Origin: a virus
Lineage: Duplodnaviria > Heunggongvirae > Uroviricota > Caudoviricetes
Direction: 5' to 3' (one strand)
DNA length: 64,000 nucleotides
IMG/VR virus record: IMGVR_UViG_3300021255_002129
The translations under genes were made by a program, and so were the position numbers. Below the pieces are notes generated by a model. The model did no database searches. It saw only the letters and a list, made by a program, of their open reading frames with translations, and was not told the DNA's origin. Each line of letters starts with the position of its first letter. The first letter of the stretch is position 1. Of the stretch, positions 33,769-64,000 are shown in pieces.

Positions 33769-33770
33769 AA

Positions 33771-35140: not shown

Positions 35141-35143
35141 AGT

Positions 35144-36762: not shown

Positions 36763-36801
36763 AAAAAAAGAGGTGGATTAATTTCCACCTCTTTTTTATT
36801 T
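36762..36801. terminator. bidirectional rho-independent terminator at the early/late convergence point
   Basis: A7-AGAGGTGGA-TTAATT-TCCACCTCT-T6ATTTTTATT: a perfect 9-bp stem flanked by an A-tract and a T-tract. Confidence 0.8.
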
Positions 36802-36804
36802 TTA

Positions 36805-45860: not shown

Positions 45861-48800
45861 TTTCATTACTCTGCATACCTACCTTTCATAATTTCACAAT
45901 GATAATCAATCAAGGCTTCAACAGGACAAAGTAAATCATCATTATTTGTAAATAGCCATCATTGGTCATTATGCCAAATAAATCTACTATTTGCTTCATC
46001 TATTAATCTTTGTAATATTAAAGCATATTGTCTATCTATTTCTTTATTTAATACTAAATGATAATAATCATCATAAGCTCTATCTAAACTAATAGTATAT
46101 GTTGAACCTAATTTTGACAATTGATCTGGATCTGTGGAAGCAGTCGCCTCATCAGGCCACTGTTCACGAGATTTCATTATATAAACTCCATCTCTATATT
46201 GTCTATCACCTGTTGGTATTAAATCTTCTTCATGATTTAAATTATTTTGAGTTTCATTTTCCTCATCTTTAGTTCCATCAATATATAATGAGCCTGTCCA
46301 TACATCTCCACCAACTTGTTCAATTCATTCTTCGTCTACTATTAATCCACCATCATCATCAATAGGTTGCAATACTCTATCAAATAATAATGTATAACTT
46401 GATGAAGGATGTTCTATATTATCTTGATTAACTGATGCAGTGTATTGTTCTGGTCATTGTTCTTTAGATTTAATGCTATATCATCCAGCAAATTGGTCAA
46501 TAGCTTCTAAATAATCATCTGCAAGAGTATAAACCCCATTTTTAATTAATTGAGATGTATCACTTACATATTTATCTAATATTATATTTGTTTCAATATA
46601 TTTATTATCGGGTAATGTTTCTCTTTCTTGCTCTGCGGCAGTAGCAGGTTCAAGATGGATACCAGCGAAATATAATCCCTCAATAGCAGAGCCCTCCGCA
46701 TCAAGAGCTAAAGTATGTGTTGGTCCAATAACATGTCTTTCAAAATCTGTATCTGCAGACTCTTTAACAAATATTACAGTACCTGGTTCAGCTTCAATTT
46801 TTACTCCATCTAAAGATAACATTATTTGTTGATAATTTGAATATTTTTCAAAATATTTATTCCATATATTTTGATAGATTGAATCATTTGGTTTAAATGC
46901 TCCTCATTTTTGTCCAACTCTTCTATAAAAACTACTAGTTTGAAATACTTTACTAGTATCTTCAGTTTGTTGTAAATTAATATGGTACTCTAAATTAACT
47001 TGAGTATCAACAGGAAAAAATAATGAAGTAATTTCTACGTTCTCACCTTTTAATTCATATATACCTTCTGGATTTATTATAATAGGTTTATTATTAACAT
47101 AAACTAAATAACCTAAGATTGCGGAATCTGGATTTTCTTTATCATCACCAAGATCATCTACTACACAGGGGCCATCTTCACCCTCTTTAATTAGGTATGG
47201 GTCACTTTCAAATTCTAATCTTAAGAAATCTAAATTTTGAATTGCAATTTTATAATTTTCTTTTGCATATTTTTCATATTTCTTTTGAATTAAACTTAAA
47301 GCCTCTGTATTTGCAGGTATTATTTCATTATATTGTCCTACATAATCACTAGCAAATTGTAATAATGTATCATAAGTTCCTAATGGAGAAATATTATATT
47401 TATCATAATTTTTAATTGTTGCCGCATCCACTTCATAAGCAGTTGCTGTAAATGAATATATTCTTCTACCTAATGTTGAATTAGGTGTTAAATTAATATC
47501 CATAATTTTAACAAGTATATTTCCTTCAGTAGCTGACCTGAATAATCTAACTTTATTTGCATATAAGAAATCCATAACTTTTTCTCTGAATTCACGCTCA
47601 TAAGTCCAATCGTTAAAATCATCTATTCTTACATTTTTATCTTTATTAAATTCAATATAATTATCTAGGCTGTCTCTAAACATTTCTTCTTTTGATGTTA
47701 TTAGATGTGATGGATCCATTAAATGAGTTATCGTACCTCCAATAGGAAATTGTCTATATTCAACATAGCCATTTCTTTTAATATATGGATATTTACTTCC
47801 TATTGTATCTGTGCGGGATTCACTTACTGTACGTTTGAACGAACTTACTGATGGATCAAATCTAATATTAAGTTGCCCATCTCCGCCAGTTAAATACATA
47901 TCATCAAATAACATCATGAATGGTTCATCCTCTGCGTGAATTGCGATACCTCTATTTCCAACACTACTTCTTCTTTGTGCTATATATTTATAATACACTC
48001 CACTTTTAATAGTATAGTCATATCAAGTATAATTTAATTTACTATTTTCTTCAAAAGACTCTGTATGAACATCTTCTCATATTGTAAAATTACTTTCACT
48101 TGATGTTCTTCTAATAGTTATATTACCAATAAAAGAATCGTCATCATCTTTGCTTTTAACATTAAGTACAATACAACCATTAATATTATCAAGAGTAGCA
48201 GTTAATGTAGCTTCAAGTTTATCAGCGTTTTCTTGGACTACCATAAATTCATATGTATCTTTTTCAGTATACATATTAGCAGTTTCATATTCAAAAGTAA
48301 AATAATAGCTTTCTCCTTCATTAAAAGCATATTCAAAAGTATAGTTAAATTCATTAATATTAAAATAAATATTTGAATATATTACACCACTATCTGATAA
48401 TAATTGATTATTTATATCGTATAATTTTATTTGATAACTTTTTAATGTATCTGTTTCCGCGGAATCCGCATATGTTAATCTACCAACCACATCTACATTA
48501 TTTAATGACCATAACGTTGTGTCTGCGGAAATATCGAATCCTGAAACACTAAGACTAGGTACACTAATCCCTCTAACTAAACATACTGTTGATCATTCAG
48601 AGAAGTTTGATAAATTTGCAGCAAGCCAGCTATCGATCGCTTGAGGCGTGTTTAAAGATACATCGGCGGCGCCTGCCGCAGTAAATCTAATTTGAACTTT
48701 GTAATATTGATTTATTTGAAAACCTTCTTCAATATCACTAGTTTTTATCTCAATATAATATTTATTATCTGATACTCTTGTTAAATCAGTTTTAATGTCA

Positions 48801-49024
48801 GTTAACATAATTTCACAAGGATATTTGCTTTTATCTAATACAGATAAATTGGTATTTTGATTAACAACTGTTACTTGTGCATTTTTTATATCATTTAAAC
48901 TATTATATAAAGAAATAGAGAAATATACTCTACAAGTATTTTTTTGTATATCACTACTTCCTACTAAAAACGCAGGCATGTAGGTATCCACAACTGGTGG
49001 ATATAAATTAATATTAACTGCCAT
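45861..49024 (-). CDS. very large tail/baseplate structural protein (~1054 aa, Dit-like position) with at least five in-frame TGA
   Basis: Track ORFs 48593..49024, 48077..48490, 46904..47998, 46481..46822 and 45959..46177 all share a frame and are each bounded by TGA. Gaps read without TAA/TAG. An internal repeat 'KSKEQWPEQYTAS'/'KSREQWPDEATAS' is present. Confidence 0.5.
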
Positions 49025-49943: not shown

Positions 49944-49976
49944 AAAATAAAAAAGAGGAGTATTTAGTTACTCCTC
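49944..49976 (-). terminator. rho-independent terminator after the holin gene
   Basis: GAGGAGTA-TTTAGT-TACTCCTC with a flanking A/T tract. Confidence 0.6.
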
Positions 49977-50393
49977 ATCATCTTTAACTTCCCAAGTAAT
50001 GACTTCAGTGTCTGAACTAATATTTGCTAAATCTACAACTCCTTGAATTGCTTTCTTTCCTTGTGCCACAATAGTTGCAGTGACTACACCTAATACTGCA
50101 ACACTTGATAATGTATTAAGTAATTCGCTTGATAATAATATTACTCCAAATGCACTTGTAATCATTTTATTAATAAATGGTAACATAGTAAATGCAACAG
50201 CAACAAACACTGAGCATACATAAAACGCTAATATTTTTGTAATACCTTTAATCATTTTCTTTCCATTAAAAGTTTCTTTTCCTGACCAAATATTAATTAA
50301 TGTTCCAGTTACAATATTAACAATAGCAAGAATAGCTAATGCAATACCTAACCATCCCATTATTTGTAAAGTTTTTAAAATTGCTTCTACCAT
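49968..50393 (-). CDS. holin (multi-TM)
   Basis: 141 aa with three or four predicted TM helices and a charged C-terminus, located next to the endolysin. Confidence 0.6.
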   Translation of the reverse strand: MVEAILKTLQIMGWLGIALAILAIVNIVTGTLINIWSGKETFNGKKMIKGITKILAFYVCSVFVAVAFTMLPFINKMITSAFGVILLSSELLNTLSSVAVLGVVTATIVAQGKKAIQGVVDLANISSDTEVITWEVKDDEE

Positions 50394-50767
50394 AATATCA
50401 TGCGGCGGTCGTCGGTCTTAGAACTTTTAGTCTTGCTCTTACGCATGCCTGATCGGCTCCCGCGCCTCCTTTCCTTATTGTTTCCGCACTCTCCACCTTT
50501 AGTGCAATTATAACCAAAAAGTGGAATATTACTTTTGTAATAACCTATTAAATATTTTTCTAACCTAACAGCTTGCTCTTGTGTCAATCCACTAGATATT
50601 ACAATGTGTTTAATGTTTTTTCAGCCATATTTTTTAATAGGTTTATAGACTAACTGGCCTTTATAGCCTCGCCCATTTTTCCATCTAGACTCAGGTTTTT
50701 GGCCAGTTAATCCAATATATCGTTTCCCATTAGGGAAAATTAATTCATATACACAATAATTATGCAT
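50387..50767 (-). CDS. GIY-YIG homing-endonuclease-like protein inserted between endolysin and holin; at least one in-frame TGA
   Basis: 'VYELIFPNGKRYIGLTGQKPESRWKNGRGY' is a GIY-YIG motif and '...LEKYLIGYYKS...FGYNCTKGG' is I-TevI-like. The ATG overlaps the endolysin TAA, and the TAG stop overlaps the holin start. The C-terminal basic tail is encoded by an anomalously GC-rich patch (~50400-50480). Confidence 0.55.
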
Positions 50768-51945
50768 TATAGTTTTTGTAGACTTGATGCTGGGTAGAAT
50801 CCTGTAGTTCCAGATCCATTTCCAACTTGATATGGATAAGGTCTTCCATCCCAAATTCTTAAAATTTGTCTAGTCCATCCAATACCATATGCAGTATTAC
50901 TTCCACCATAAGAACTTCCATTACCAGTTCCTATAATCTTAACTTTATCTCCTACTTGTAATCCAGTTGGTTGTGGTGTAGGTTGTGGAGCAGGTTCATC
51001 ATATTTTTTAATTGAACTTTGATCCATCCATCCTAAGTCTCCTGTTGTATTATATGGATGCGCGCTTCCTGGGTTTTTTCTTGTAATATAAGTAACTTTA
51101 TTACTTACACTTCCTGCAGGACTAGCTGCATTAGAATTAACATATAGAGGTCCATTGATTATTACATGGTCTCCAATATTAAATGCATCACTTGGACCTG
51201 GAGTAGGTGTAGGGGCAGGACTTCCGCCATCTATTAATTTTTGAACGTCATCTGGTAAATATATAAAACATCTAAAGTAATAATTACTTGAACATCCCCA
51301 TCTACCATTATTATTTGTTCTAATTTGGTTCCAGAATATTGTGCTTGAGCCCCATCCAGATTCAGATGTATAAACTTGATTATTACTATCTACTCTTTCA
51401 ACGATTGCTACATGACCAGCGCCTGAGTTTCCCCAGCACATAATTGCTCCACGTTTTGGGGTTGAACCAGTTTTAAGCCCCGCTGTCTCCGCTCTTTCTT
51501 TAAAATTAATAGCATTGCAATTTAAAGTTTTATAAGTACATCCGCTTGTATCTCTTGCAATATTTATAATTTCATTAAATCTACCACTTGCATAACCTAC
51601 GCAGTTTGCTAATGCATTTGCTGGTGCATATAATGGATTACCTTTGATACAAGTATTCCATCCACCAGAACCTGTAACTATAAAGTTTTTGTTATTAGCA
51701 GGTCTGCTAATTCTCATTATAAAACCCGCAGCACCTATACCTTCAGGTTCATCTGCGTTAAGGTTTTCAATTTCATAATGCTCATCCGCATCATTTAATT
51801 CTTCAGGTGTGTCTGTGTTAAATAAATATTGAACATTTTCGTCATCAATATCATCTCTTAAAAAAGCTTTAGCAACCATAGTTTGCACTTCTGTAGGTGC
51901 CATTTCCACTCTTTTAATTCTTTCTTCACTTGATAATTGTGCCAT
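50767..51945 (-). CDS. endolysin: CHAP-domain peptidoglycan hydrolase with two C-terminal SH3b-like cell-wall-binding domains
   Basis: CHAP catalytic Cys 'ANCVGYASGRF' and His 'GAGHVAIVERVD'. A Pro/Thr linker 'PAPTPTPGP' precedes two SH3b-like repeats ('GDHVIINGPLYV...', 'LQVGDKVKIIGTGNG...'). Confidence 0.8.
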   Translation of the reverse strand: MAQLSSEERIKRVEMAPTEVQTMVAKAFLRDDIDDENVQYLFNTDTPEELNDADEHYEIENLNADEPEGIGAAGFIMRISRPANNKNFIVTGSGGWNTCIKGNPLYAPANALANCVGYASGRFNEIINIARDTSGCTYKTLNCNAINFKERAETAGLKTGSTPKRGAIMCWGNSGAGHVAIVERVDSNNQVYTSESGWGSSTIFWNQIRTNNNGRWGCSSNYYFRCFIYLPDDVQKLIDGGSPAPTPTPGPSDAFNIGDHVIINGPLYVNSNAASPAGSVSNKVTYITRKNPGSAHPYNTTGDLGWMDQSSIKKYDEPAPQPTPQPTGLQVGDKVKIIGTGNGSSYGGSNTAYGIGWTRQILRIWDGRPYPYQVGNGSGTTGFYPASSLQKL

Positions 51946-52378: not shown

Positions 52379-54190
52379 TTAGGATGTTGTTTTTTGTATT
52401 GTAACACTTGCCAAGATATTACCCGATTCTATACTTTCAGCAGACGGAAATCGTTTTCTATATGAAAAAATAGGCACATTCGATGAATCTATACTTATAT
52501 TAGTGTTAACATCATTTGTTAAAGCATTATTTCCTACTTGTGCATATAAATCGTATACGTCTATAGATGAGTCATTACTAAAAGTAATAGTTCTTTTTTT
52601 AACCATTACAAAAGTCCACGTTCTAATATATGAATTGTATTTGTCAATTACTTCAATTGTGTTTGAATTGCGAATTTTTATTGTTGCATCAAAAACTATT
52701 CCATTTCTGATTCTTATTATTGGCGAATTTAAAGTAGTAGAAAGTATAAAACTACATAAATAATAATACGAATTTAAATCAAACGTTTGTCCACTATAAT
52801 ATGGTGTTATTTCAGAATTATTATTTAACTGTAAACAATATGCTGGATCATCATAATTAACTAAATTATTAGTATTATTAAATTTATTATTGGACAAATG
52901 AATATTATCATTAGCTATCATATATCTATAATCACTAGCATGATTAAATCTTATAAAAGCACAATCACCTTTTAAAGCTGAATTAAACTTACTATTTGTA
53001 ATTGAAATATATGCTTGTTTTCTTTCTCCAATATAAATTGCTGAAGTTTCACTATTTTCACTAAATGCATCATAATAATACACACAACAATTTGTTAAAA
53101 AGTAGTTTCCATTATCATTATCAAATTCAAAACCTCTAGCATAAGTATCAGCATAACAATTTGAAAGAACAGCACTCCCTTGTGTAAACAAAAAACCAAT
53201 AGTCGTATTTTTTAAATCATCTGTAGATTGGCTATTATATAAAGCTGTACAATGAATATCATCAAACGTTTGAAAACCACCTGTCATTTTAATACCAATC
53301 TGACATCCATCAATTCTTATATGAACTATTTCATTATCATAAGAGTCAATCTTAATAGCTGTTCCTTGATTACTATCTTTTCTAAAAAAATCACAATATG
53401 ATACTTTTACATCACCACTTGTATAACGTTGGTTAAGAGATAAATACAACCCAAAATCTTCTATATTTTTAAATACTGTTTTTGCTAATTGCACTAGTTG
53501 TCTACCACTGTCTATTACCATACCTTTTGATACATTAGAACAATCAATAATACCGCCTTCAACAAAAATAACATTATTAGCCTTTGTTCTACTATAAGTT
53601 CCTTTAGTATCATCTAAGCCAATTTCAATCAATGTCTCTAGTTTTTCATTAGAAATATTTTTAATTAGTGCATTTTCATCTAGTTTAAGATTTACACCAT
53701 AATTATTAGCTTGATAAACTATAATTTTATTTGTTATTCCATAGTCTCCTTTTGGGAAATAAATTGTCTTTAGAGGGTTCTCATCAATAGCTTTTTGAAT
53801 GGCTTGTATATCATCATGTATTCCATCGCCATAAGCACCATATTGTTTAATATTAATAAAATCTTCAGCAATCAATGTAGCATATTTATCATTGCTTAAT
53901 ACTTCTTGATAATCAGTTTCACTTTTTTCATCAGTTATCTTATATGTAGCTCCACCACCATCATTAATCTCATAATATCCAAGCGTTACTACCATATCTC
54001 CAACTTTTAATTTCGTATCAGCTTTCATGTCTGCAACACTGTTATAATAATAAGGTTTTTTATTCAACTTTAATTGAACAGACTCACCATCACTAGTCGA
54101 TACATTCTGAGCTTCTGCTCCAATAGGAATATAATCAGTAAAAGTGCCATCTTGTTTTTTTATTTTAATTTTCTTAAATAAATCTGCCAT
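52379..54190 (-). CDS. tailspike/receptor-binding protein with pectate-lyase-superfamily (right-handed beta-helix) depolymerase domain
   Basis: 'IKQYGAYGDGIHDDIQAIQKAID' is the hallmark motif of PF12708. The N-terminal anchor 'MADLFKKIKIKKQDGTFTDYIPI' is shared with the other fibre proteins. Confidence 0.7.
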   Translation of the reverse strand: MADLFKKIKIKKQDGTFTDYIPIGAEAQNVSTSDGESVQLKLNKKPYYYNSVADMKADTKLKVGDMVVTLGYYEINDGGGATYKITDEKSETDYQEVLSNDKYATLIAEDFINIKQYGAYGDGIHDDIQAIQKAIDENPLKTIYFPKGDYGITNKIIVYQANNYGVNLKLDENALIKNISNEKLETLIEIGLDDTKGTYSRTKANNVIFVEGGIIDCSNVSKGMVIDSGRQLVQLAKTVFKNIEDFGLYLSLNQRYTSGDVKVSYCDFFRKDSNQGTAIKIDSYDNEIVHIRIDGCQIGIKMTGGFQTFDDIHCTALYNSQSTDDLKNTTIGFLFTQGSAVLSNCYADTYARGFEFDNDNGNYFLTNCCVYYYDAFSENSETSAIYIGERKQAYISITNSKFNSALKGDCAFIRFNHASDYRYMIANDNIHLSNNKFNNTNNLVNYDDPAYCLQLNNNSEITPYYSGQTFDLNSYYYLCSFILSTTLNSPIIRIRNGIVFDATIKIRNSNTIEVIDKYNSYIRTWTFVMVKKRTITFSNDSSIDVYDLYAQVGNNALTNDVNTNISIDSSNVPIFSYRKRFPSAESIESGNILASVTIQKTTS

Positions 54191-54327: not shown

Positions 54328-54370
54328 AAAATAAAAAAGACTGCGGCAATCACAGTCTTTTTTATTTTTA
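54328..54370. terminator. bidirectional-looking rho-independent terminator
   Basis: AAGACTG-CGGCAATCA-CAGTCTT with an A-tract 5' and a T-tract 3'. Confidence 0.5.
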
Positions 54371-54392: not shown

Positions 54393-54870
54393 ATTATCTC
54401 TTGCTAAATGCCCATCTTTCTATAACTATATTTACAGCCTCATATAGCGACTTTCTAACACATCTAAAGGAATTTATATTAGCTATATTAGAAAGTGTTG
54501 TAAAAGGGCTATGATTATCTATTGTACTATTCAAATGGTCTAAAACATCATTACAATTTTTATCTACAACAGAACTATCTGCAATTAAGTAGTTCTTATT
54601 ATCATAAAATACATGATATGCTCTAACTTTTATTTTACTTTTAGTTTTTTCTGGATTAGATAATCTAAAAGCTTGTCCACCTTGTGGGTAGCAGCAACTA
54701 TTATATTTCCCTGTACTAAATCATTTACATATTCAAGTCCAGTTTCTAAATCTAAATAGTATGTTCCATTATCTTCTTTATGAATTTTAAGCTTCAGTCG
54801 GAATTATTATTTTATCTCCATTTGATGAAAACAACTTGTCTGTTGAATTAAATAATTTAATCTTAAATTA
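54393..54870 (-). pseudogene. disrupted small gene downstream of the M14 fibre gene (possible fibre-assembly chaperone remnant or -1 frameshift site)
   Basis: Two protein-like minus-strand frames abut at an A6 run (~54640-54660) and there is no clean start (ATG-GAG-ATA-AAA-TAA-TAA). The downstream frame ends with '...VNIVIERWAFSKR*'. Confidence 0.3.
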
Positions 54871-54888
54871 AATAGTTTAAATATAAAA

Positions 54889-57066
54889 TTAGTCAATAAC
54901 ACTAACTTCATTAAATTTATAATCATTCTCACAAATATACTTATTCTTTATAATAACATTTTCAAGTAATGAAACAACTGTTGTTATTGCAATTTTCCTC
55001 ATGTCATCTCTACTTCCTGTATAATCATCACCAGACGTTGTAGCAAGTTCAATTAAAAAACCATGCAAATTCATAACACCACTATACCATTCATCAAAAG
55101 AACCATGAAACTCACCAGTTTTCTTTAAAGTAAAGCAATTTTGGTTATTTGTATATTCTGTTTTTAACCAATCAAAATTAGAACGCATTTGTGAATTTAA
55201 GGCTTTAATGGTAGAATAACCAATATCCAAATCTGATTTAAAGCCACTTGCAAAATATCCAATAACACCACCAGCAGTCAAAGAAGCTGTTGAATGTCTA
55301 TTAATAACTAAGAATATTTTATCTTTGTTGTTACGAATATAGTCACATAATATTTGAGTTTCAATTTCACTTTCAGGATATTGTCCTGAAGAATTGTATT
55401 CATTATCACTATATACCCAATTTGCATTGAAATTTCTATTAATATTCACATTATTTCCATTATTTCTTATATGGTGTTCATAACCATATGGGTTTATTGT
55501 TGGTATTACTTCAAATATGACATTATCAAATAAATTCTTTAAAGCATCATTTGTACCATAATTGTCCAATATGTCTTTAAACATCATATAGTCATCTAAT
55601 GCAATAGTTTCTTCATTACCATGCATTGAACCAACATATAGAATTGTTAATTTTTGTTTTGGTATCTGTTGTAATGCTATATTTTCATTGTGTGAATTAA
55701 TAGTGTATTTTCTTATTTCTAGGTTATCTGTAGTAGTCCCAAGAACTGTTTTAGTAATAAATGATGAATAAGTATTTAGTAACCCATCCCATAAATCATA
55801 TAATGTTGATAATTTATTTGTAGTATAATATGGAACAATTGCCTGATTAAAATTATATTTAGAAAATTGAGAGCAAATTTCTATAATTTTACTTATATTA
55901 TTATTTTCAGGATTAATTATATATTTATCATAGTATAAATTTAATGTCATATGATTTAATGCATTATTTACTCTTTTGGCATTAAAATTTTCAGATGATG
56001 AACCATCATCGATTGAAAATCTAATATAACAATCTTGATTAATGATGAATTTATCTATTCCATATGTTCTATAATCTATTAAATACGATGAATCTTTATC
56101 ACTAAAAGTACAAATATTAAATTGAACATTGCCATCACTACTAATTGATGAACCTTTTAACACTTTAATATAATCAATTGTTCTAAAACGTGATGGGAAT
56201 GTATTATTAATTCCTGTTGATGAAATTTGACCCTGTTCAAAATTTGAATATGATAAATTATGTTTATTATACAAATTATCATTAATATTTTGTATTCTGT
56301 TCTCTATGTCTGTATTTTTTGATTCTTCTAATAAATTTAATGTTATATGAGATAAAGCTGAGTCTACTCTTTCTTCATTAAATGTTTCAGATGAGCTACC
56401 ATCATTAATTGAAAATCTAATATAACAGTTTTGAGAAACAATGTAAATGTTTGTTGAAAATGTTCTATACTCTAACAAAGAGCTTGTATTTTTATCACTA
56501 AAAGTACAAATATTAAATTGAACATTGCCATCTGTTTCAATAGAAGTTCCTTTAAGCACTTTAATATAATCTTTAGTTCTAAATCGTGATGGAAATGTTG
56601 TGTTTATTCCAGAAGAACTTATTTGACCTTGTTCAAATTTTGAATATGATAAATTATACTTATTATACGAATTATCAATAATATTTTGTATTTTTTTATC
56701 GTCTTCATTTAATCTTTCATTAATTTCTTCATAATCGCTACTTGCTTGATAAAGTCCACCATCTACCCAAGTTGTACCATTGTAATAATACCAATGACCA
56801 TCAATAGTTAAAACATAAACTCTTGTTGTATCAGTCATTTTACTTATTGAATTTGCTACTAATGGGCTTCCACTTGCTAAGCTATTTATTTGATTTTGTA
56901 AACTATTGATACTAGAATTAACATTTATAACATTAGCTTTATTATTTAATTCATTAGTCAATGTATTTCCATTAACATCGACATGGTCACTATCAACAGC
57001 TAATGGAATACTATCACTATATGAACCATCTTTATTTTCTAATTTAACATATTTTAATTTATCCAT
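54889..57066 (-). CDS. tail fibre with internal duplicated domain and C-terminal M14 zinc-carboxypeptidase-like domain
   Basis: Shared N-terminal anchor 'MDKLKYVKLENKDGSYSDSIPL'. Two ~120-aa repeats are ~70% identical ('NLSYSKFEQGQISSSGINTTFPSRFRT...' and 'NLSYSNFEQGQISSTGINNTFPSRFRT...'). M14 motifs 'SMHGNEET' (HxxE), 'NPYG', 'NRNF' and 'INRHS' are present. Confidence 0.7.
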   Translation of the reverse strand: MDKLKYVKLENKDGSYSDSIPLAVDSDHVDVNGNTLTNELNNKANVINVNSSINSLQNQINSLASGSPLVANSISKMTDTTRVYVLTIDGHWYYYNGTTWVDGGLYQASSDYEEINERLNEDDKKIQNIIDNSYNKYNLSYSKFEQGQISSSGINTTFPSRFRTKDYIKVLKGTSIETDGNVQFNICTFSDKNTSSLLEYRTFSTNIYIVSQNCYIRFSINDGSSSETFNEERVDSALSHITLNLLEESKNTDIENRIQNINDNLYNKHNLSYSNFEQGQISSTGINNTFPSRFRTIDYIKVLKGSSISSDGNVQFNICTFSDKDSSYLIDYRTYGIDKFIINQDCYIRFSIDDGSSSENFNAKRVNNALNHMTLNLYYDKYIINPENNNISKIIEICSQFSKYNFNQAIVPYYTTNKLSTLYDLWDGLLNTYSSFITKTVLGTTTDNLEIRKYTINSHNENIALQQIPKQKLTILYVGSMHGNEETIALDDYMMFKDILDNYGTNDALKNLFDNVIFEVIPTINPYGYEHHIRNNGNNVNINRNFNANWVYSDNEYNSSGQYPESEIETQILCDYIRNNKDKIFLVINRHSTASLTAGGVIGYFASGFKSDLDIGYSTIKALNSQMRSNFDWLKTEYTNNQNCFTLKKTGEFHGSFDEWYSGVMNLHGFLIELATTSGDDYTGSRDDMRKIAITTVVSLLENVIIKNKYICENDYKFNEVSVID

Positions 57067-57121: not shown

Positions 57122-57163
57122 TATCAAAAGAAGGGACAAATAATTATCTTATTTTGTCCCTTC
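57122..57163 (-). terminator. rho-independent terminator (minus strand)
   Basis: Perfect 11-bp stem GAAGGGACAAA/TTTGTCCCTTC flanked by an A/T tract. Confidence 0.6.
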
Positions 57164-57406
57164 TTCATTAATACTTGCGGCAACCGACTCTTCGGTTTTA
57201 GAATTAGATTCTTCATTTGTTTGGCTAGCTTTCAATTCTTTTTTAGCCATTTCTGCACGTTCTATATCTTCTTTTTTACAAAATTCAAAATATTGTTGTT
57301 CAATTTCTGTCATTATACTTTTCATAATAAAATATATTGCATCTATTGATATTCCACTTTCATTTAAATCCTGTACAATTTTTTGTTCTAAATCTCTAAA
57401 TATCAT
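57149..57406 (-). CDS. hypothetical protein (85 aa)
   Basis: RBS AAAGGAGTAAAAAG, then ATG. True TAA stop. Confidence 0.45.
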   Translation of the reverse strand: MIFRDLEQKIVQDLNESGISIDAIYFIMKSIMTEIEQQYFEFCKKEDIERAEMAKKELKASQTNEESNSKTEESVAASINEEGTK

Positions 57407-57425: not shown

Positions 57426-60400
57426 CTAATAATCTTTAACCGCAACAAGAATTCCATTTGTAAAACGTAATCCAATAACACTATTATCTGTTTTTCTAAT
57501 AATAATTTCATTTGTTGCTTGGCCAGTCTCTCCAGAAGAAGTATGTAAATTTCCAATATTATACAATCCATTTCCATTCATTTGAATAGCTCCTCTAACA
57601 TTTAAACCAGATACTTTTGGATGATTAGTTTCTATTCCCATTTCAAGATAATATTCTCCCTTATGAATACTAATACTTCCACCTGTAATAGTAGCTCCTC
57701 CAACAGTACCTCCATTAATACTAGAACCACTAATATTTCCACTAAACTGTCCATTACTAGCATGAAGAGTTCCATTACTTTCAATTCTAAAACGAGTACC
57801 ATAATTAATTAAATCAGCAGTCCCTTGTGACCATCCACCATTATCTATTCTAATATTTTTAAAGTGGGCGTTTCCTGCTGCATTAATCTCTCAATTTGGT
57901 CCTTTAAGAGTTCCATTTGCAGAGATATGTGTATTTCCATTATTGCTTTGTAATTCAGTTCCATTAATAGTTCATCCACCTATTTGACCGCTAGACGAAT
58001 ATAAAGCCCCATCTTTATCAACAGCAAATTTATTGTTAATAGCTAAATTTAAGTTATCTCTATTAGTTCCATTAATAGTTCTACTAAATAATCCATTATT
58101 ACTTGAAAATCTAATATTTGCAGAACTACTTTTTGTTCCCGTATAAATTGAATCATCATCAATATTAAACCCAGCTAAAGTACCTCCGCCTTTTGCAGTT
58201 AGATGTCCATCTTTATCAACTTTAAAATTACCATTTCCTCATTCAATTAATGGCGTAGTTAAATCAATTAACATTCCTTGATTATTTTTATTTCCAACGC
58301 CATAATTTAAAGGTTTTCCACTATCATCATAATTTTTTCAATAAGCGCTACTATATAACATAGCTTTTTCTGCGGCGGGGTCTAAAATAATTTGACCTGG
58401 GCCATGTTTACCAAATATTGCAGATCCATCTTCTGCATTTAAGAACATTGTACGTTCACCAAAATTATATCCAAACATACCAATATCTTTTTTATTTTTA
58501 CCAGCTTCTTTAACACTACCCATTAACATACCAGTAAAACTATTATCTGCTTCTTTTTGACCTGCACCAACTTGTGGAGCTAATATAACTCCATTACCAT
58601 TTTTATCTATGCTAACACTATTACCATCTCATCCGTTAATAGCTGCATTTCCATATTTATTTAATAATAAATGAATTGGTATATGAATTCTAGCAACTTC
58701 ATTTGCACTCTTATCTATTATGATACATTCAAGAGCATTAGTTACACACTCACCATCAAAATCATCTATTGGTTTATATGATTTTGTATTCCTTGCTGCG
58801 GGAATATCACCTCTTGAATATTCTTTTAAGAATTCTTTATTTATCCAACTTCTATTAACTGAGTCATATATTCTTCCTCGAATATTCCAATCATAATTAA
58901 CTCCATTAGTTTTAGTTAATACGCTGATATCTTCAGTGATATTATTTATTACTTTCGTTACTTTTAATTCAAAAGGCTTTGAATTATCATATTGCGGCTT
59001 GCGGCCATCTGCACTATAAGTCGCATATCTAAATCCTGTGTCTTCAACTAATGAAACTCCATATCCGCTTACCGCAGTTGCAGTTATAACAGGCATTGTA
59101 GCATAATATTCAATATTATCATAAGTAATTATAACTTTAACAATATTAGCAGGTGAATTAACACCTTTATATCCGCTATAACTAAATGTTCCATTATCTG
59201 TAACACCTAAACTAGTTTCATCATAAACATTGCTTGTGTATTTATTTTGTAAAATAGTTCATTTAACATTTGCAGTTTTTCCTTCAGTAGTATTACCACT
59301 TGAACTACCATCAAATATTTTTTCTCCACTATGCCATAATTGAGCATTAAACCATTTATTATTTTGTCTTGGAGTATAATTAATATTTCCATTTAATATC
59401 ATTGGATATCCAAAACCAGTGTTTTGAGTATTAGGAACTATTTTACATACGAATTCAGTTCCATTAGTTCCTGGTTCTCCTTCTTTAACAAAAGTAAAAT
59501 CAGTTTCCGCAACTAAATTCATATCTTTATAATCAACCGTTAATTTAATTTTATTATTGTTCTTTTTAATATCATACTTATCTCTAATTGTATATTGAAG
59601 ATACATTTCTCCTTCAACTGTTTTATAATCATCTTGAACAATCCAATCATAGCTATCAGGAACTTTTAGCATCGTATCTTCAAGAGGAACTGTTCAACTA
59701 AACTTACATTTATCTATAATATCATCTGCTAAAGCATTACCTAAATTATCATAAACTGTAAAACTTAATGGTAATATAACTTGAGGATTATCTAAACTAT
59801 CACTTACAGGTGATATACCAGCCTCATCGTATTTAAAAGTTTGTGTTCCATTATTTATAATTAAAGTATAAGCATCTTTTTTATCTAAATCATTTCTAAT
59901 AACAATAGAAGCAGTTCCAATATATATTCCATTGTGGTAAACTGAACATTTATAAGTACTAAAATTAGTTATTGTATTCACTTGTAAATGATGTATTTTT
60001 CTACCTTCTACTCTCATTATTTTATCATATCTATTTATAATTGTCAAGTATTGATTTAATTGTCCTTGACTTGCTGCGGCCATAGCTCTTTCTGCAGCAA
60101 TGTCAGCTTTAAGTTGCGTATAACCGACAACTGCATTGTTATATTCTGTATTATCTTCAGTGGTTTCCGTCAAAGCATAGAAATTATTATTATTATCTAT
60201 TTCAACTCATTGATAAGTATATTCATTACTAGTTGACTCTTGACCATTAATTTTACAAGTTAATGTAGGATTTCCAATATCATAATAGAATTGTTCGCCC
60301 TTATCGCTTTCAATACTAATCTCATAATTAGATGAATAATTAGTAACAGTAATAACCCTACTTAATTGAATATTATTATAAATAACAACACATTTATATT

Positions 60401-61559
60401 TAGTTTCTTTTGCTTCGCTATCGCTTTTCTTTACAATATATTTAAAATCTGCGGGAATCCATTCTACTACAGGTGCAGTTCCAGCAGATGCGTTTTTAAT
60501 TACGTTCTTTTGATTTAAACATTTCCATCCTTGTCCGCCATAAGCATTAAAATCTTCACTTAAACTAGTTACACCATTGTTTTCAACAAACCAATAATAT
60601 GGTAATCTTTGACTATCAGGATTAATATATTTACCTTTAACTCTTACTTGTGCCATTAATGTTCTAGTTGCACTAGGTAAATCATTTTCATCAAAATAAA
60701 CTCCTTGTGGAGTAACAAAACTTAAACTACATGACTCTAGGTCTACTGCACTTAAAGCCTGACTTCCGCATATTTCAAAATCTTTAATAAATATATCATT
60801 AAGTTTTGTTTCATCTTGATTTGGAAAATCATAACAGAATAGAGATATTTTATTTATATATTGAAAATTAACACCATCTATATCAAATATTCCAACTTGT
60901 CTTTTGAAATTAGGTATTTTATATGGATTACCTTCGAATTGATTAACATCAAGAGCATAATTTCTAGTAACTAATTCTTCACTAGCATTATCTTTAAAAA
61001 CCATTTCATATAAAATTCCGTAGTTTCCTCTAAATTGTTGTTCAGTAGGTAAGCTAGTTTTTATTGTAGCTGCTAAAAGTATTGATGTAGATGACTTTAT
61101 ATATTCGTTTATACTTTTTAGGTTAAGTCTTAAATTATTAGCAGAACTGCTATTTCTATCATATATTACATATTCATTAGTAGTTTTATATGAACATAAT
61201 TCATATTGGTTATTACTTTCTACACAGTTATTACCAATTATTTCAAAAGCCTCTTCACCTTCTGCGGCAACCGCATAATTCTTTCCTAATCGACTTACCG
61301 CACCTAGAATAGTTTTATCCCTACTCATATCATTATTAGGAATTAAAACATAGACTTCAGAGCCATTCATATAACTGATTTCAGAACTACCTGAATATGC
61401 ATAAAAATTACTATCTTGATATTGGACTTTGTATTTACCAATAGTTGGGTCTTCACAGTTAATAATCTTAGCTTGAACTGTCTTATCATATCCAGCATTT
61501 TTAACTCTTTGGTTTACAATAGTTTCAATAGCATCAAGTATTTGGTTTTCATATTTCAC
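57426..61559 (-). CDS. giant tail-tip structural protein (~1377 aa) with a C-terminal Gly/Asn-rich fibre-like repeat region; at least five in-frame TGA
   Basis: Six track ORFs (60207..61559, 59694..60173, 59259..59672, 58629..59096, 58338..58529, 57426..57641) share one frame and are each separated by a TGA. The gaps were translated by hand without TAA/TAG. Start is 'MKYENQILDAIE' after AAGGAG; stop is TAG at 57426. Confidence 0.5.
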
Positions 61560-61640: not shown

Positions 61641-61673
61641 ATAAAAAAGAAGGTAACCTTCCGATTACCTTCT
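61638..61673 (-). terminator. rho-independent terminator overlapping the tape-measure stop codon
   Basis: GAAGGTAA...TTACCTTC hairpin with a flanking A/T tract. Confidence 0.5.
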
Positions 61674-64000
61674 GTTAGCTCTCATACTAGCCATATTAAC
61701 TAAGTTGTTTAGAGCTTCTTCTATTTCTCTTGAGTCTTTTACGTTAGGGAATTGAGCATCAATGTGAACATTTTGTTCTAATACATCTCCACCAACTTCA
61801 GTACCTAATCCTCCTGCGGTTGCCGCAGCAAGTTTTCCTAACACTGAACTTCCTAACATATTAGTTATATTTCTCATAATACTAATAGCATTTAACATAT
61901 TAGCAGTATCTTCTTTATTTAATACTAATTCCTTTTGATGTAATAGAGCTAGGCGACCATCACTTCCCCATTCGCCTGTGTATCCACCAGTATCATATCC
62001 AGATAATTGAGATTTCTTAACCCATCCAAGGTCTCTATATCTACCATCTGCACTATGAATATGAATACCATAAGGATTATTAGTAATTCTATCAACTACT
62101 ATACCATTAGCAACTCCTGAATATTTACTTCCAGTTGGACTAGAACCATAAGAGTCATAATAGTATCTACCAGAATATGTTGCGGTTTCACCTACAACTA
62201 AATTATTGTCTCCACCTAGTGCGGAACCTCCTCCAGCACCAGAGCCAGATGAGTCACTTCCTGAACCTGAACTTCCACTTCCAGATCCAGAACCTCCATT
62301 AGCATTACCGGCTGCTGCAGCAGCTTGTCTTTGTTGTTCTGACCAATATTCATAAGCAGCTTTAGTAGCAGCGATTGCCGCATCCTTAGCAGCATTATAT
62401 TTATTAACCAAATCATCAAGCTGAGCTATAACATTACCAATAGCAGTTAATTCTTGTTCATAACTATTGATTAATTCAGTATTATCACTAATTAATTGTT
62501 GAGTTCTATTGATATTTTCATCAATGCCTTCTCCAATACTTTCAAAATCAATTCTACCAGTATTTTCTAATTCATCTAATCCATCTTCATAATCTTTAGT
62601 TGCATCATGAAGTTGATCAAAGGCGTCTTTACATACTCCTAAGAATCCACCCTCCCCAGCAAACACATCAGTCATATGTTGAACTCCAGATTCCCAATAA
62701 GGTAATAAATCGCCCATTAATACATCTTTTTCTTCATCAGACATATTTTGGAAATTTGCAACATCTATATCATATAATCTAGATAAATCATTAAAAGCTG
62801 ACTCATGTAAATTATTTCTAACAGTTGTATTTTGTTCAGTTAAACCATTTATTAATTGTTCATATTGATTTTGTAATAATAGTTCTCTTTCACTTCTTGC
62901 AACTGGGTCATTGATTTGAGCGGCTTCAGCCATTTTTTCTTGGAATTCAACTCAAACGTCATACATTTGATTTAAGTTATCTTGATATCTTGCTTTATCA
63001 AAGTTATAAAGTGAATTATACATATCATTTAATTCGTCTTGTAATTGACCAATTTGGTCTCCATCCGCAGTATATTCATATCTATAATTACCTTGACTAT
63101 CTCTTCTTAATCTCATTTTAGATTTATTTTGTTGAGCTTCTTGAAGAGCAATTTGTTTTAAAGCAATTTCATATTTTTTATTAGCTCTTTCAATATCATA
63201 TTCAGTTAATTTATCTCTTTCACGTAAATCCGCAAGTTCTTCATCCATAATCTTTTTAAGTTGTCTTTGTGCGGAAATACTATCAGTTTGGTCTAAAGCA
63301 TCTAAATATTTACCTTCAAGTTTTTGAACTTCATATAATGAATTAATTGTATCTAAATATTGGTCTGCATTTTTATTAATTAAATTCCATTCTTCTTCAA
63401 TATATTCAAGTCCTAAATTATCAGTAATTTTATTATTTAAGTTTTGGAATATTAAATTAATTGCATTTAAATATTTATCTTGAAGATTTTGAATTGATTC
63501 TTCAATTAAATCATTCATTGATTGAACTGCATCAGCTCATTTTTCTCTTGCGTTTTCTCATTCATCAGAACCCTCTTCTAAAGTATCTAACTGTTGTCTC
63601 CAGAAATCCGCTTGTTGTCTTTGAAAATCTAATTGACTATTAAAGTTTTGTTGTTGTTTATCATAATATTTAGCTAATTGACTATAAGATTGTTCTCCAT
63701 ATACTAATGATATTACTTCCATATCATGTTCGATTAAATCACTAATCATTTCATATGCTTCAATTTGTTCATCAAATTTCTCTTGAGCCTCATCCATCAT
63801 ATCTATATAAGATTCATGAATTTCTTTTTGAAGTTCAAGCACGTCTGTAAGATTAGACATTAATTCTTCATAATATTTCTTTAAGTCATCTAATGCAGCA
63901 GTTCTATTATCACCATAAACATTAGACCAACCATTAGTATCCATTTGATTTAATTCAGCTAATGTATTATCTACTTGTTTTCTTAATGCTTGAACTATAC
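61665..64000 (-). CDS. tail tape-measure protein, C-terminal ~780 aa (5' end beyond window); at least two in-frame TGA
   Basis: Track ORFs 63558..63944, 62952..63518 and 61665..62933 share a frame and are bounded by TGA. Extensive coiled coil, a Gly/Ser linker 'GSGSGSGSSGSGSDSSGSGAGGG', and a true TAA stop at 61665. Confidence 0.6.

What the first reader, a model, noticed from the sequence alone, without database searches (positions are those of the whole stretch)
54889..57066. Tail fibre carrying an M14 zinc-carboxypeptidase-like domain and a recent internal tandem duplication
The C-terminal third has the HxxE ('SMHGNEET'), 'NPYG', 'NRNF' and downstream His motifs of M14 peptidases. That fold is shared with gamma-D-glutamyl-meso-DAP peptidases and with phage poly-gamma-glutamate hydrolase PghP, so this may be a peptidoglycan-stem-peptide or poly-gamma-glutamate capsule depolymerase built into the receptor-binding protein. 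Upstream of it, two ~120-aa segments are ~70% identical (DNA ~55940-56320 and ~56330-56700), indicating a recent domain duplication, perhaps of a carbohydrate-binding module.
Basis: partly seen in the sequence, partly recalled or inferred. Interest (0 to 1): 0.65.

Follow-up and report, generated by a model that had tools for sequence, protein, structure and literature searches.

The report
Phage tail fibre tipped with carboxypeptidase
This gene encodes a modular tail fibre of an uncultured gut or rumen phage whose tip is an apparently active zinc carboxypeptidase, an enzyme type not yet studied on phage fibres, so it probably trims a peptide on the host cell surface; the internal duplication is real but old and typical of the family.

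Summary
ORF 54889-57066 (-) encodes 725 aa. Its C-terminal 40% is a true Peptidase_M14 domain (Pfam E=1.9e-23) with all zinc and catalytic residues present. Upstream, a 396-nt (132-aa) unit occurs twice in tandem.

- The duplication is not recent. The copies differ at 24% of bases (dS 0.61), and both known close homologues also carry two copies.
- The unit belongs to a large, unannotated beta-sandwich module family (828 representative proteins) that usually occurs in arrays of 2-4.
- The M14 domain is closest to classical carboxypeptidases (CPA, CPB, CPO, CPT). It keeps their Asn-Arg carboxylate anchor. It does not match PghP, and matches MpaA only weakly.

The tail-fibre call is well supported. 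The gene follows the tape-measure gene. Its N-terminal 124 aa are shared with over 100 fibres carrying other enzymes (SGNH esterase, GDPD, phosphoesterase, deacetylase, beta-helix). The two-module-plus-M14 cassette recurs at 62-69% identity in appendage genes of phi29-like podoviruses.

The host phage is about 136 kb and reads TGA as Trp in late genes. The substrate is unknown; a cell-wall peptide is the best guess.

The parts
54889..57066 (-). Whole gene: 725-aa tail fibre with a C-terminal M14 carboxypeptidase domain
   Evidence: ORF listing. Exact protein P0001 lies on a 136,410-bp ENA metagenome contig. RBS AAAGGAGAG upstream of the ATG.
56695..57066 (-). N-terminal anchor region, aa 1-124: conserved start peptide, short coiled-coil-like stretch, small 'GHWYYY' beta domain
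   Evidence: 55-80% identical to the N-termini of about 110 of the 120 listed homologues, which carry different C-terminal enzymes. Aa 2-43 resemble the N-terminus of the neighbouring fibre 52379-54190 (30% identity, E=8e-6). Aa 64-110 match Lactococcus phage neck-passage and receptor-binding proteins. Unrelated to the N-termini of P0002 and P0003 (21-26% identity).
56299..56694 (-). Beta-sandwich module, copy 1 (aa 125-256)
   Evidence: TRF period 396. HMM match 1.8e-57. No Pfam family covers it.
55903..56298 (-). Beta-sandwich module, copy 2 (aa 257-388)
55021..55800 (-). Peptidase_M14 catalytic domain (Pfam envelope aa 423-682; the last helix runs to about aa 720)
   Evidence: Pfam E=1.9e-23. 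PDB sequence and profile hits to CPO, CPA, CPD, CPB, TAFI, CPT and MpaA. Model pLDDT 67, pTM 0.75, with Foldseek E about 1e-13 to CPB, CPO, CPT and CPA. dN/dS 0.14-0.19 against P0002 and P0003.
55612..55623 (-). HxxE zinc-binding motif (H482, E485), equivalent to CPA His69/Glu72
   Evidence: Aligned to the HxxE motif of CPD, CPO and CPA. E485 is invariant in alignment A3. H482 is conserved in 6 of 7 sequences; P0016 has Gln.
55435..55442 (-). N543-R544 of NRNF, equivalent to CPA Asn144/Arg145, the anchor for the substrate's terminal carboxylate
   Evidence: Invariant in A3. Aligned to NRNF/NRNW of carboxypeptidases. The role of these residues in CPA is as described in PMC6506827.
55294..55296 (-). 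H591, third zinc ligand (CPA His196 equivalent)
   Evidence: Invariant in A3. Aligned to the HS motif of CPA, CPB and CPO.
55048..55050 (-). E673, general base (CPA Glu270 equivalent)
   Evidence: Invariant in A3. Aligned to the Glu of 'FSFEL' in procarboxypeptidase A in the profile alignment.
57149..57406 (-). Small conserved ORF (85 aa) just upstream of the fibre gene; function unknown. A hairpin plus T-run follows it at about 57125-57160.
   Evidence: A 66-75-aa ORF occupies the same position in sister phages. No family hit. Hairpin GGGACAAA...TTTGTCCC followed by TTCTTTTG read directly from the sequence.
52379..54190 (-). Second fibre or tailspike (603 aa) with a pectate-lyase-like beta-helix
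   Evidence: PF12708 E=3.8e-11. PHROG 23059 tail fiber. Its N-terminus resembles that of the M14 fibre.
54394..54791 (-). Frameshifted, truncated relic of a siphophage 'antireceptor' N-terminus, between the two fibre genes. A hairpin plus T-run follows at about 54330-54360.
   Evidence: tblastn: 60-64% identity over 126 aa, E=1e-48, to the antireceptor genes of Lactobacillus delbrueckii phages PMBT4, Ld25A, phiLdb and c5. The three-frame translation shows stops and one frameshift. Sequence read.

Best explanation
The gene encodes a modular tail fibre (receptor-binding or receptor-processing protein) of an uncultured phage of about 136 kb. That phage most likely infects a low-GC Gram-positive-type bacterium and reads TGA as Trp in its late genes.

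The fibre has four parts:
1. A 124-aa N-terminal anchor that docks it to the baseplate. This anchor is shared with many sister fibres.
2. and 3. Two tandem 132-aa beta-sandwich modules that act as spacers and/or binding domains.
4. A distal, catalytically competent M14 zinc metallocarboxypeptidase.

Most likely mechanism: the M14 pocket binds a free C-terminal carboxylate through Asn543/Arg544. It then removes the terminal residue from a peptide exposed on the host envelope, using Zn (H482, E485, H591) and E673. The most plausible substrate is the un-cross-linked stem peptide of peptidoglycan.

On this reading the domain is a receptor-recognising and receptor-modifying enzyme. It would play the role that the SGNH esterase, GDPD phosphodiesterase, deacetylase or beta-helix lyase domains play on sister fibres in the same genomic slot.

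Shown: the domain identities, intact catalytic residues, purifying selection, the modular family, synteny, and exchange of the cassette between phage types.

Inferred: presence in the virion, enzymatic activity, the substrate, and the host.
For: M14 identity and intact active site.

Purifying selection: dN/dS is 0.14-0.19 on the M14 domain and about 0.37 on the modules.

Tail context: tape-measure protein at 61665-63944 (PHROG 34405 and 4211), then a 1377-aa protein, an 85-aa ORF, this gene, a pectate-lyase fibre, a CHAP lysin and a holin-like protein.

Same slot in sister phages:
- an SGNH fibre
- a deacetylase-like fibre
- a different M14 fibre, 33% identical in the M14 domain, followed by the same pectate-lyase fibre and CHAP

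N-terminal anchor: shared with about 36 SGNH, 14 GDPD, 4 metallophosphoesterase, 6-8 M14 and other enzyme fibres among the 120 listed hits.

Cassette exchange: the two-module-plus-M14 cassette is 62-69% identical in P0002 and P0003. Both lie next to the phi29 gp9-like tail knob and connector genes of phi29-like contigs, which is the appendage position.

Module fold: found in tail-fibre and enzyme proteins of Lactobacillus, Enterococcus, Bacillus and Clostridium phages.

Gram-positive-type host:
- CHAP, Amidase_2 and GH25-LysM lysins in the relatives
- GDPD fibres in the family
- structural genes related to Enterococcus phages of about 140 kb and to Phass-1

Classical exopeptidase rather than PghP-type: Asn-Arg is retained (PMC6506827).
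Against: - No experiment exists and no substrate is known.
- Removing a terminal residue from a stem peptide does not open the peptidoglycan mesh, so the benefit to the phage is not obvious.
- The equivalent of CPA Tyr248 and the S1' specificity residue (255) could not be placed reliably.
- The M14 model is only moderately confident: pLDDT 67, with the 150-188 loop below 50.
- One family member (P0016) has Gln in place of the first zinc His. Some M14 tips may therefore be binding-only.
- The host is not identified. The only genome-level clue is a related lysis cassette on a contig binned with an 'uncultured Mollicutes' MAG.
Confidence: 0.6

Rival explanations
1. Capsule depolymerase: the M14 tip hydrolyses poly-gamma-glutamate, as an exo- or endo-gamma-glutamyl hydrolase, to get through a PGA capsule. 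Functionally this would resemble phage PghP.
For: PghP and PghL share the carboxypeptidase-like zinc site and fold (PMC6506827). Every residue of gamma-PGA carries a free alpha-carboxylate that an Asn-Arg anchor could bind. Other M14 enzymes (MpaA, matched weakly) cleave gamma-glutamyl bonds.
Against: - No PF05908 match at E<=1.
- The top 50 structural matches are all classical carboxypeptidases, and none is PghP.
- PghP/PghL recognise the polymer with His/Thr/Ser where this protein keeps the classical Arg/Asn-Arg set (PMC6506827).
- There is no evidence that the unknown host makes PGA.
Confidence: 0.1
2. Virion-associated peptidoglycan hydrolase: the protein is mainly a wall-penetration enzyme, for example one cleaving gamma-D-Glu-diamino acid or L-Ala-D-Glu bonds in stem peptides, and is not the receptor-binding fibre.
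For: The T5 tape-measure protein pb2 carries a zinc-carboxypeptidase motif in its C-terminal part (10.1101/2022.09.20.507954). PMC11445458 notes the T5 motif and cites Boulanger 2008 for it. A weak local match to MpaA. In Stenotrophomonas phage BUCT702 an M14 protein follows a DD-metalloendopeptidase tail protein.
Against: The N-terminal anchor and the genomic slot are shared with esterase, phosphodiesterase and lyase fibres that act on surface glycopolymers, not with lysins. In phi29-like phages the cassette occupies the appendage (gp12) position, not the gp13 lysin position. A classical exopeptidase does not break cross-links.
Confidence: 0.15
3. Binding-only tip: the M14 fold is used as a lectin-like receptor-binding domain, and catalysis is irrelevant or lost.
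For: P0016 has lost the first zinc ligand. Enzyme folds are often re-used as binding domains in phage receptor-binding proteins (general knowledge).
Against: In this protein, P0002 and P0003, every zinc and catalytic residue and the whole MHGNEET, NINRNFNANW, INRHSTAS and LIELATTSG blocks are identical despite dS>1.
Confidence: 0.1
4. Not structural: a secreted or lysis-associated peptidase that happens to lie in the late region.
For: The lysis cassette (CHAP plus a holin-like protein) lies two genes downstream.
Against: There is no signal peptide-like N-terminus. Instead there is a conserved fibre anchor with similarity to Lactococcus and Streptococcus phage receptor-binding and neck-passage proteins. 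The modular architecture is typical of fibres.
Confidence: 0.05

Closest known systems
Classical M14 metallocarboxypeptidases (CPA, CPB, CPO, TAFI, bacterial CPT; CPD of the N/E subfamily)
   Same: A full-length match to the catalytic domain. The HxxE...H zinc site, catalytic Glu, Asn-Arg carboxylate anchor and fold are all present. The 'MHGNE' and 'NPxGYE' motifs look like the N/E (CPD-type) subfamily, while the overall fold matches rank M14A first.
   Different: There is no pro-peptide (PF02244) and no transthyretin-like domain. The domain is fused behind a phage fibre anchor and two beta-sandwich modules. Identity is only 12-19% structurally and about 30% to the nearest annotated phage M14 proteins. 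The Tyr248 and S1' positions are unresolved.
phi29 gp12 pre-neck appendage and other enzyme-tipped tail fibres or tailspikes of Gram-positive phages (GDPD, SGNH, pectate-lyase types)
   Same: An N-terminal virion anchor joined to a swappable C-terminal enzyme that acts on the cell envelope. The same cassette sits in the appendage position of phi29-like contigs. Sister fibres carry GDPD, SGNH or beta-helix domains.
   Different: The enzyme is a peptide exopeptidase, not a glycopolymer-degrading or deacylating enzyme. No characterised example was found in the searchable literature.
Phage PghP / B. subtilis PghL (MEROPS M86, PF05908) poly-gamma-glutamate hydrolases
   Same: Phage-borne zinc hydrolases with a carboxypeptidase-like zinc site and a distantly related fold (PMC6506827).
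   Different: They are small single-domain soluble enzymes. There is no sequence-family match here. Their substrate-recognition residues differ (His/Thr/Ser against Arg/Asn-Arg). They are not part of a fibre.
MpaA (murein tripeptide amidase) and M14C gamma-D-glutamyl-meso-DAP peptidase I
   Same: M14-clan enzymes that act on peptidoglycan stem peptides. There is a weak local match around NPYG...NRNF.
   Different: The score is far below the equivalog cut-off (23.9 against 157 bits), and the match covers only about 70 residues. MpaA is cytoplasmic and works in murein recycling.
M14 family metallopeptidases annotated in tail loci of cultured phages (Stenotrophomonas vB_SmeS_BUCT702/704, Acinetobacter AbIPP1, Halomonas YPHTV-1; PHROG 4722)
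   Same: An M14 domain encoded in the distal-tail or fibre region just before the lysis genes.
   Different: Identity is only about 30% over the domain. The N-terminal parts differ, the beta-sandwich module pair is absent, and the hosts are Gram-negative. All are automatic annotations; I found no functional study.
TGA-recoded 'Agate'-type gut phages (Borges et al. preprint 10.1101/2021.08.26.457843) and the Phassvirus group (PMC10607447)
   Same: A genome of about 130 kb. In-frame stop codons are confined to structural and lysis genes while replication genes use the standard code. Fibres with pectate-lyase domains are present. The 685-aa tail protein is 32% identical to that of Phass-1.
   Different: Phass-1 recodes TAG, whereas this phage recodes TGA. 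Membership of the Agate clade was not tested, because no terminase tree was built.

Membership tests
Peptidase family M14 (Pfam PF00246) | Significant match to the family HMM above the curated threshold, over most of the domain | tested here: met
   83.9 bits against a cut-off of 21.6, E=1.9e-23; aa 423-682 cover profile positions 2-269 of 286.
Peptidase family M14 (Pfam PF00246) | Zinc ligands His69, Glu72 (HxxE) and His196 | tested here: met
   H482, E485 and H591, aligned to the corresponding residues of CPO, CPD, CPA and CPB.
Peptidase family M14 (Pfam PF00246) | Catalytic general base Glu270 | tested here: met
   E673 aligns with the Glu of FSFEL in procarboxypeptidase A and is invariant in 7 family members.
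Peptidase family M14 (Pfam PF00246) | C-terminal carboxylate anchor Asn144-Arg145, plus Arg127 | tested here: met
   N543-R544 (NRNF) is invariant. R534 aligns with Arg127 in the CPO alignment, but ambiguously (Arg127 or Arg130) in the CPA alignment.
Peptidase family M14 (Pfam PF00246) | Tyr248 and the S1' specificity residue (position 255) | tested here: inconclusive
   The 640-660 region (KKTGEFHGSFDEWY) aligns in two different ways to IYQASGGSIDW. No coordinates were available for superposition.
Peptidase family M14 (Pfam PF00246) | Carboxypeptidase alpha/beta fold | tested here: met
   Foldseek E=7e-14 to 1e-10, TM 0.5-0.64 over about 330 columns to CPB, CPO, CPT, CPA and TAFI. The model has pLDDT 67 and pTM 0.75.
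Peptidase family M14 (Pfam PF00246) | Zinc-dependent release of C-terminal residues | not testable with these tools
   Needs a biochemical assay.
PghP / PghL poly-gamma-glutamate hydrolase (MEROPS M86, PF05908) | Match to the family HMM | tested here: not met
   PF05908 is not among the Pfam hits at E<=1. No PghP or PghL chain appears among the top 50 Foldseek PDB matches.
PghP / PghL poly-gamma-glutamate hydrolase (MEROPS M86, PF05908) | Polymer-recognition residues His78/Thr80/Ser81 in place of CPA Arg127/Asn144/Arg145 (PMC6506827) | tested here: not met
   The protein has the classical N543-R544 and R534.
MpaA murein tripeptide amidase (NCBIfam NF007897) | Score above the equivalog cut-off over the full length | tested here: not met
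   23.9 bits against a cut-off of 157; only aa 517-584 match. The PDB 5hxd match covers profile positions 130-203 only.
M14C gamma-D-glutamyl-meso-DAP peptidase I | Specific similarity to the Lysinibacillus ENP1-type enzyme | not tested
   No model or sequence of this subfamily was available in the libraries used.
Phage tail fibre or receptor-binding protein with an enzymatic tip | Encoded in the tail module downstream of the tape-measure and distal-tail genes | tested here: met
   TMP (PHROG 34405 and 4211) at 61665-63944; the order TMP, 1377-aa protein, 85-aa ORF, fibre, fibre, lysis genes is conserved in sister contigs.
Phage tail fibre or receptor-binding protein with an enzymatic tip | Conserved N-terminal virion anchor joined to interchangeable C-terminal domains | tested here: met
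   The N-terminal 124 aa are 55-80% identical in about 110 proteins with SGNH, GDPD, metallophosphoesterase, EEP, deacetylase, nucleoside-hydrolase-like, beta-helix or M14 C-termini.
Phage tail fibre or receptor-binding protein with an enzymatic tip | Physical presence in the virion; oligomeric fibre; host adsorption | not testable with these tools
   Needs virion proteomics, cryo-EM or adsorption assays on a cultured relative.
Stop-codon-recoded phage, genetic code 4 (TGA=Trp) in late genes | In-frame TGA restricted to structural and lysis genes, restoring long ORFs | tested here: met
   Eight in-frame TGA join five fragments into a 1377-aa ORF. Genes 45866-49024 (8 TGA) and 43809-45866 (6 TGA) behave likewise. 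Replication genes have none; the 1318-aa polymerase has 0 TGA and 19 TGG.
Stop-codon-recoded phage, genetic code 4 (TGA=Trp) in late genes | TGA positions align with Trp in standard-code or TAG-recoded relatives | tested here: met
   7 of 16 aligned residues are Trp and only 1 is Gly. Position 110 is Trp in all three relatives.
Stop-codon-recoded phage, genetic code 4 (TGA=Trp) in late genes | Phage-encoded suppressor tRNA | tested here: inconclusive
   No tRNA was found in the 64-kb window. The other 72 kb of the contig was not available.

The most novel reading that the evidence does not exclude
The M14 tip is an active exopeptidase that recognises and clips the free C-termini of un-cross-linked peptidoglycan stem peptides, or of another peptide-decorated wall polymer. 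That would make a peptide terminus, rather than a sugar or phosphate group, the primary phage receptor. It would define a new class of receptor-destroying enzyme on phage fibres. The class would be mobile between phages of about 136 kb and phi29-like podoviruses of about 15 kb that share a host.
Probability: 0.25. Interest if true: 0.7.

Novelty: new variant of a known kind. Interest (0 to 1): 0.45.

Why it matters
Enzyme-tipped fibres determine phage host range. They are also mined as depolymerases and enzybiotics. Almost all characterised examples act on sugars, acetyl groups or phosphodiesters.

A conserved, apparently active carboxypeptidase in the fibre slot suggests that a peptide terminus on the Gram-positive envelope can serve as the receptor or as a barrier. 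The domain is under strong purifying selection and has been exchanged between very different phages, which supports this.

The work also defines two things:
- a large, unannotated beta-sandwich module family typical of these fibres
- a fibre family with a common anchor and at least eight different enzyme tips, which is a natural toolkit for engineering receptor-binding proteins

The practical limit is that both the phage and its host are uncultured.

Tried and rejected
1. Homologue searches with the M14 domain. A homologous-protein search with the M14 domain alone returned nothing, not even the protein itself. A search with the 7-sequence M14 alignment returned only 4 weak hits. The word index evidently samples sparsely, so the M14 alignment stayed shallow and the M14 model reached only pLDDT 67.

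2. Collection scans with the close M14 cassette. Neither genome contigs nor viral contigs gave a confirmed relative. The 7-sequence alignment was too divergent to seed a scan. The specific cassette is therefore rare in reference collections.

4. Pfam on the intergenic relic, the 1377-aa protein and the 685-aa protein gave nothing significant.

5. Extending the gene upstream through TGA codons, to a GTG at 57258. Rejected because the ATG at 57066 has a strong RBS, homologues start at the same MDKLKY, and the extension overlaps the 85-aa ORF in another frame.

6. Orthology of module copies. The identity matrix is nearly star-like (62-79%). Only the Q-r2/P0002-r2 pair stands out at 79%. The duplication is therefore dated only as 'not recent'. 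It is roughly as old as the split from the phi29-like cassettes, possibly blurred by gene conversion: the intragenic dS of 0.61 compares with 0.74-0.87 between lineages.

7. Literature searches for a characterised M14 receptor-binding protein found none.
Full report
**1. The observation**

The minus-strand ORF 54889-57066 encodes 725 aa, with an ATG start and a TAA stop. It has a strong AAAGGAGAG ribosome-binding site. Its N-terminus, MDKLKYVKLE, is the conserved start of many homologues.

GFLIE (E673) adds the catalytic Glu.

The tandem duplication is real. Tandem Repeats Finder reports 55935-56692, period 396 nt, 1.9 copies, 79% matches and score 989. The repeat finder gives the same register. 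In protein terms aa 125-256 and 257-388 are 68-73% identical.

**2. The M14 domain**

- Pfam Peptidase_M14 matches aa 423-682 with E=1.9e-23, well above the curated cut-off.
- PHROG 4722 'zinc carboxypeptidase' also matches.
- The sequence alone hits solved carboxypeptidases O, D, B and A.
- A profile of seven fibre M14 domains aligns to procarboxypeptidase A across the whole catalytic domain, including Glu270, and more weakly and locally to MpaA.
- In that seven-sequence alignment E485, N543, R544, H591 and E673 are invariant. H482 is replaced by Gln only in P0016.
- An AlphaFold2 model (pLDDT 67, pTM 0.75; shallow alignment) matches CPB, CPO, CPT, CPA and TAFI at Foldseek E about 1e-13 over about 330 columns. 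The top 50 matches are all classical carboxypeptidases.
- Against its two close homologues the domain has dN/dS 0.14-0.19 with dS>1.

I conclude that it is a true and probably active M14 metallocarboxypeptidase.

**3. Which M14-like enzyme?**

PghP belongs to MEROPS M86 / PF05908, which does not match here. The PghL structure paper states that PghP/PghL recognise poly-gamma-glutamate with His/Thr/Ser residues. These occupy the space of Arg127/Asn144/Arg145 in carboxypeptidase A and are not conserved in classical enzymes (PMC6506827). This protein keeps the classical Asn-Arg. That points to an exopeptidase docking on a terminal carboxylate.

MpaA matches only locally, at 23.9 bits against a cut-off of 157.

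The positions equivalent to Tyr248 and the S1' determinant 255 could not be aligned unambiguously. Specificity is therefore open.

**4. The repeated module**

The two copies differ at 24.5% of bases, with dS 0.61, dN 0.24 and dN/dS 0.39. Both are therefore maintained by selection, and the duplication is not recent.

The only close homologues, P0002 and P0003, also have exactly two copies. The second copy of P0002 is closer to the query's second copy (79%) than the query's own copies are to each other (72%).

A profile of the module found 828 representative proteins at E<=1e-3 among 1.84 billion. Of the 156 module-bearing proteins retrieved, 82 have two copies, 40 have three and 2 have four, with a median spacing of 133 aa. 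Tandem arrays are thus the norm for this family.

The same tendency shows elsewhere. P0005 differs from P0006 only by a perfect tandem duplication of a different module of about 141 aa.

- Lactobacillus phage LP65 and Lb338-1
- Enterococcus phage EFP01
- Bacillus phage Page and Stahl
- Clostridium phage CPD2 and CPS1
- gut phage proteins annotated as metallophosphatase, GDPD or GDSL enzymes

A carbohydrate-binding role is possible but unsupported.

**5. Why it is a tail fibre**

Read with TGA as a sense codon, the neighbourhood is:

| Position | Product |
|---|---|
| 61665-63944 | tape-measure protein |
| 57426-61559 | 1377-aa protein |
| 57149-57406 | 85-aa ORF |
| 54889-57066 | this gene |
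| 52379-54190 | pectate-lyase-like fibre |
| 50767-51945 | CHAP lysin |
| 49968-50393 | membrane protein, holin-like |
| further downstream | more tail and baseplate genes |

The first 124 aa are 55-80% identical to the N-termini of about 110 other proteins. Their C-termini carry SGNH esterase (about 36), GDPD (about 14), metallophosphoesterase, endonuclease/exonuclease/phosphatase, polysaccharide deacetylase, nucleoside-hydrolase-like, beta-helix or other M14 domains.

In sister contigs of 135-141 kb the same slot holds an SGNH fibre or a deacetylase-like fibre. In a third contig it holds a different M14 fibre (33% identical M14, other middle modules), followed by the same pectate-lyase fibre and CHAP lysin.

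The first 43 aa also resemble the start of the neighbouring fibre. Aa 64-110 match Lactococcus phage receptor-binding and neck-passage proteins.

**6. A mobile cassette**

P0003 and P0002 share the two modules and the M14 domain with the query at 62-69% identity, but have an unrelated N-terminus of about 200 aa. They are encoded on phi29-like contigs. P0003's contig carries a protein-primed DNA polymerase, a gp9-like tail knob, a connector and a lower-collar-sized gene, and P0003 then sits in the position of the gp12 appendage. P0002's shorter contig shows only the gp9-like tail knob next to it.

The cassette has therefore moved between a phage of about 136 kb and podoviruses of about 15 kb, presumably because they share a host surface.

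In the window the gene looks like an independent unit. A hairpin plus T-run and a TATAAT-like box precede it.

Downstream lies a 400-nt relic that is frameshifted and truncated. It is 60-64% identical (E=1e-48) to the N-terminus of the 'antireceptor' of Lactobacillus delbrueckii siphophages. Another hairpin plus T-run follows it. This scar supports repeated recombination at the fibre locus.

**7. The phage**

Late genes contain in-frame TGA, while replication genes (topoisomerase, ligase, helicase, primase, polymerase, NrdD) contain none.

At TGA positions of the 685-aa tail protein, relatives have Trp at 7 of 16 aligned sites. This indicates code 4.

No tRNA lies in the window.

Relatives are an unannotated 176-kb faecal phage, Phass-1 (a TAG-recoded gut phage with a predicted Clostridia host, PMC10607447) and, more distantly, Enterococcus phages of about 140 kb.

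The pattern matches the TGA-recoded phages of about 127 kb, with recoding confined to structural and lysis genes, described by Borges et al. (10.1101/2021.08.26.457843). I did not test clade membership.

The lysis cassette is 62-80% identical to one on a 181-kb contig binned with an 'uncultured Mollicutes' gut MAG. This is a weak host clue.

**8. Mechanism and its limits**

The best-supported reading is a baseplate-anchored fibre whose distal M14 domain binds a free peptide C-terminus on the envelope and removes the terminal residue. It would act as a receptor-recognising and receptor-modifying enzyme, like the esterase and deacetylase tips of its sisters.

Peptidoglycan stem peptides are the most obvious carboxylate-terminated peptides on a Gram-positive wall. 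Poly-gamma-glutamate, surface proteins or peptide-decorated polymers are not excluded.

Everything beyond domain identity, conservation, synteny and modularity is inference.

**9. Novelty**

Enzyme-tipped fibres are well known. M14 genes are automatically annotated in the fibre loci of a few cultured phages: Stenotrophomonas BUCT702/704 and Acinetobacter AbIPP1. A PHROG also exists.

I found no paper that characterises such a protein. The nearest precedent is the zinc-carboxypeptidase motif in the T5 tape-measure protein (10.1101/2022.09.20.507954; PMC11445458).

I therefore rate it a new variant of a known kind, of moderate interest.

Noticed in passing
window 57426-61559 (-), 45866-49024 (-), 43809-45866 (-), 32824-36762 (+): In-frame TGA codons (up to 8 per gene) occur only in late and structural genes. 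Standard-code ORF calling breaks these genes into fragments. TGA aligns with Trp in relatives, which indicates code 4. Replication genes at 1-32000 have no TGA. No tRNA was found in the window.
   Followed up: partly
window ~54394-54791 (-): The 700-nt 'intergenic' gap between the two fibre genes holds a frameshifted, truncated relic. It is 60-64% identical over 126 aa (E=1e-48) to the N-terminus of the antireceptor of Lactobacillus delbrueckii siphophages (PMBT4, Ld25A, phiLdb, c5). A hairpin plus T-run follows at ~54330-54360. The identity is surprisingly high for a phage of such different size and GC content.
   Followed up: partly
L007 8001-10418 and L009 413-2806 (proteins P0003, P0002): The two-module-plus-M14 cassette also occurs, behind a different N-terminus, on phi29-like podovirus contigs. 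P0003's contig carries a protein-primed polymerase, gp9-like tail knob and connector, with P0003 in the appendage position. P0002's shorter contig shows only the gp9-like knob next to it.
   Followed up: partly
proteins P0005 (751 aa) and P0006 (610 aa): Two otherwise identical M14 fibres differ by a perfect tandem duplication of an unrelated module of about 141 aa. This is a truly recent duplication, or an assembly variant, in the same fibre family.
   Followed up: no
window 57426-61559 (-): The 1377-aa protein between the tape-measure gene and the fibres (read with 8 TGA as Trp) has no PHROG or Pfam match. Its size and position are conserved in sister phages (1293-1460 aa).
   Followed up: partly
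window 50767-51945 (-) and 49968-50393 (-); L014 2980-4674: The CHAP lysin, which has a repeated C-terminal SH3-like region, and a multi-TM holin-like protein sit in the middle of the tail genes. A cassette 62-80% identical lies on a 180,928-bp contig of the MAG 'uncultured Mollicutes bacterium UMGS1109'. That contig could be a prophage or a mis-binned phage, and is a possible host clue.
   Followed up: partly
window 54846-54887: A 20-nt AT-rich unit (AATTAAATAATTTAAACATA) is repeated 2.1 times immediately after the stop codon of the fibre gene.
   Followed up: no
window ~36000-37000: Gene orientation and GC skew switch sign here: the plus-strand early and replication block meets the minus-strand late block, and cumulative GC skew peaks near 36 kb.
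   Followed up: no
protein P0016 (880 aa): An M14 fibre of the same family has Gln in place of the first zinc-binding His (GQQGVEK). It carries three or more copies of a related W-E-x-G...R-x-R-T module. It may be a catalytically inactive, binding-only variant.
   Followed up: no
tool behaviour: the search for homologous proteins with the M14 domain alone did not return even the identical protein P0001. Negative results from that word-indexed search should not be read as absence.
   Followed up: no
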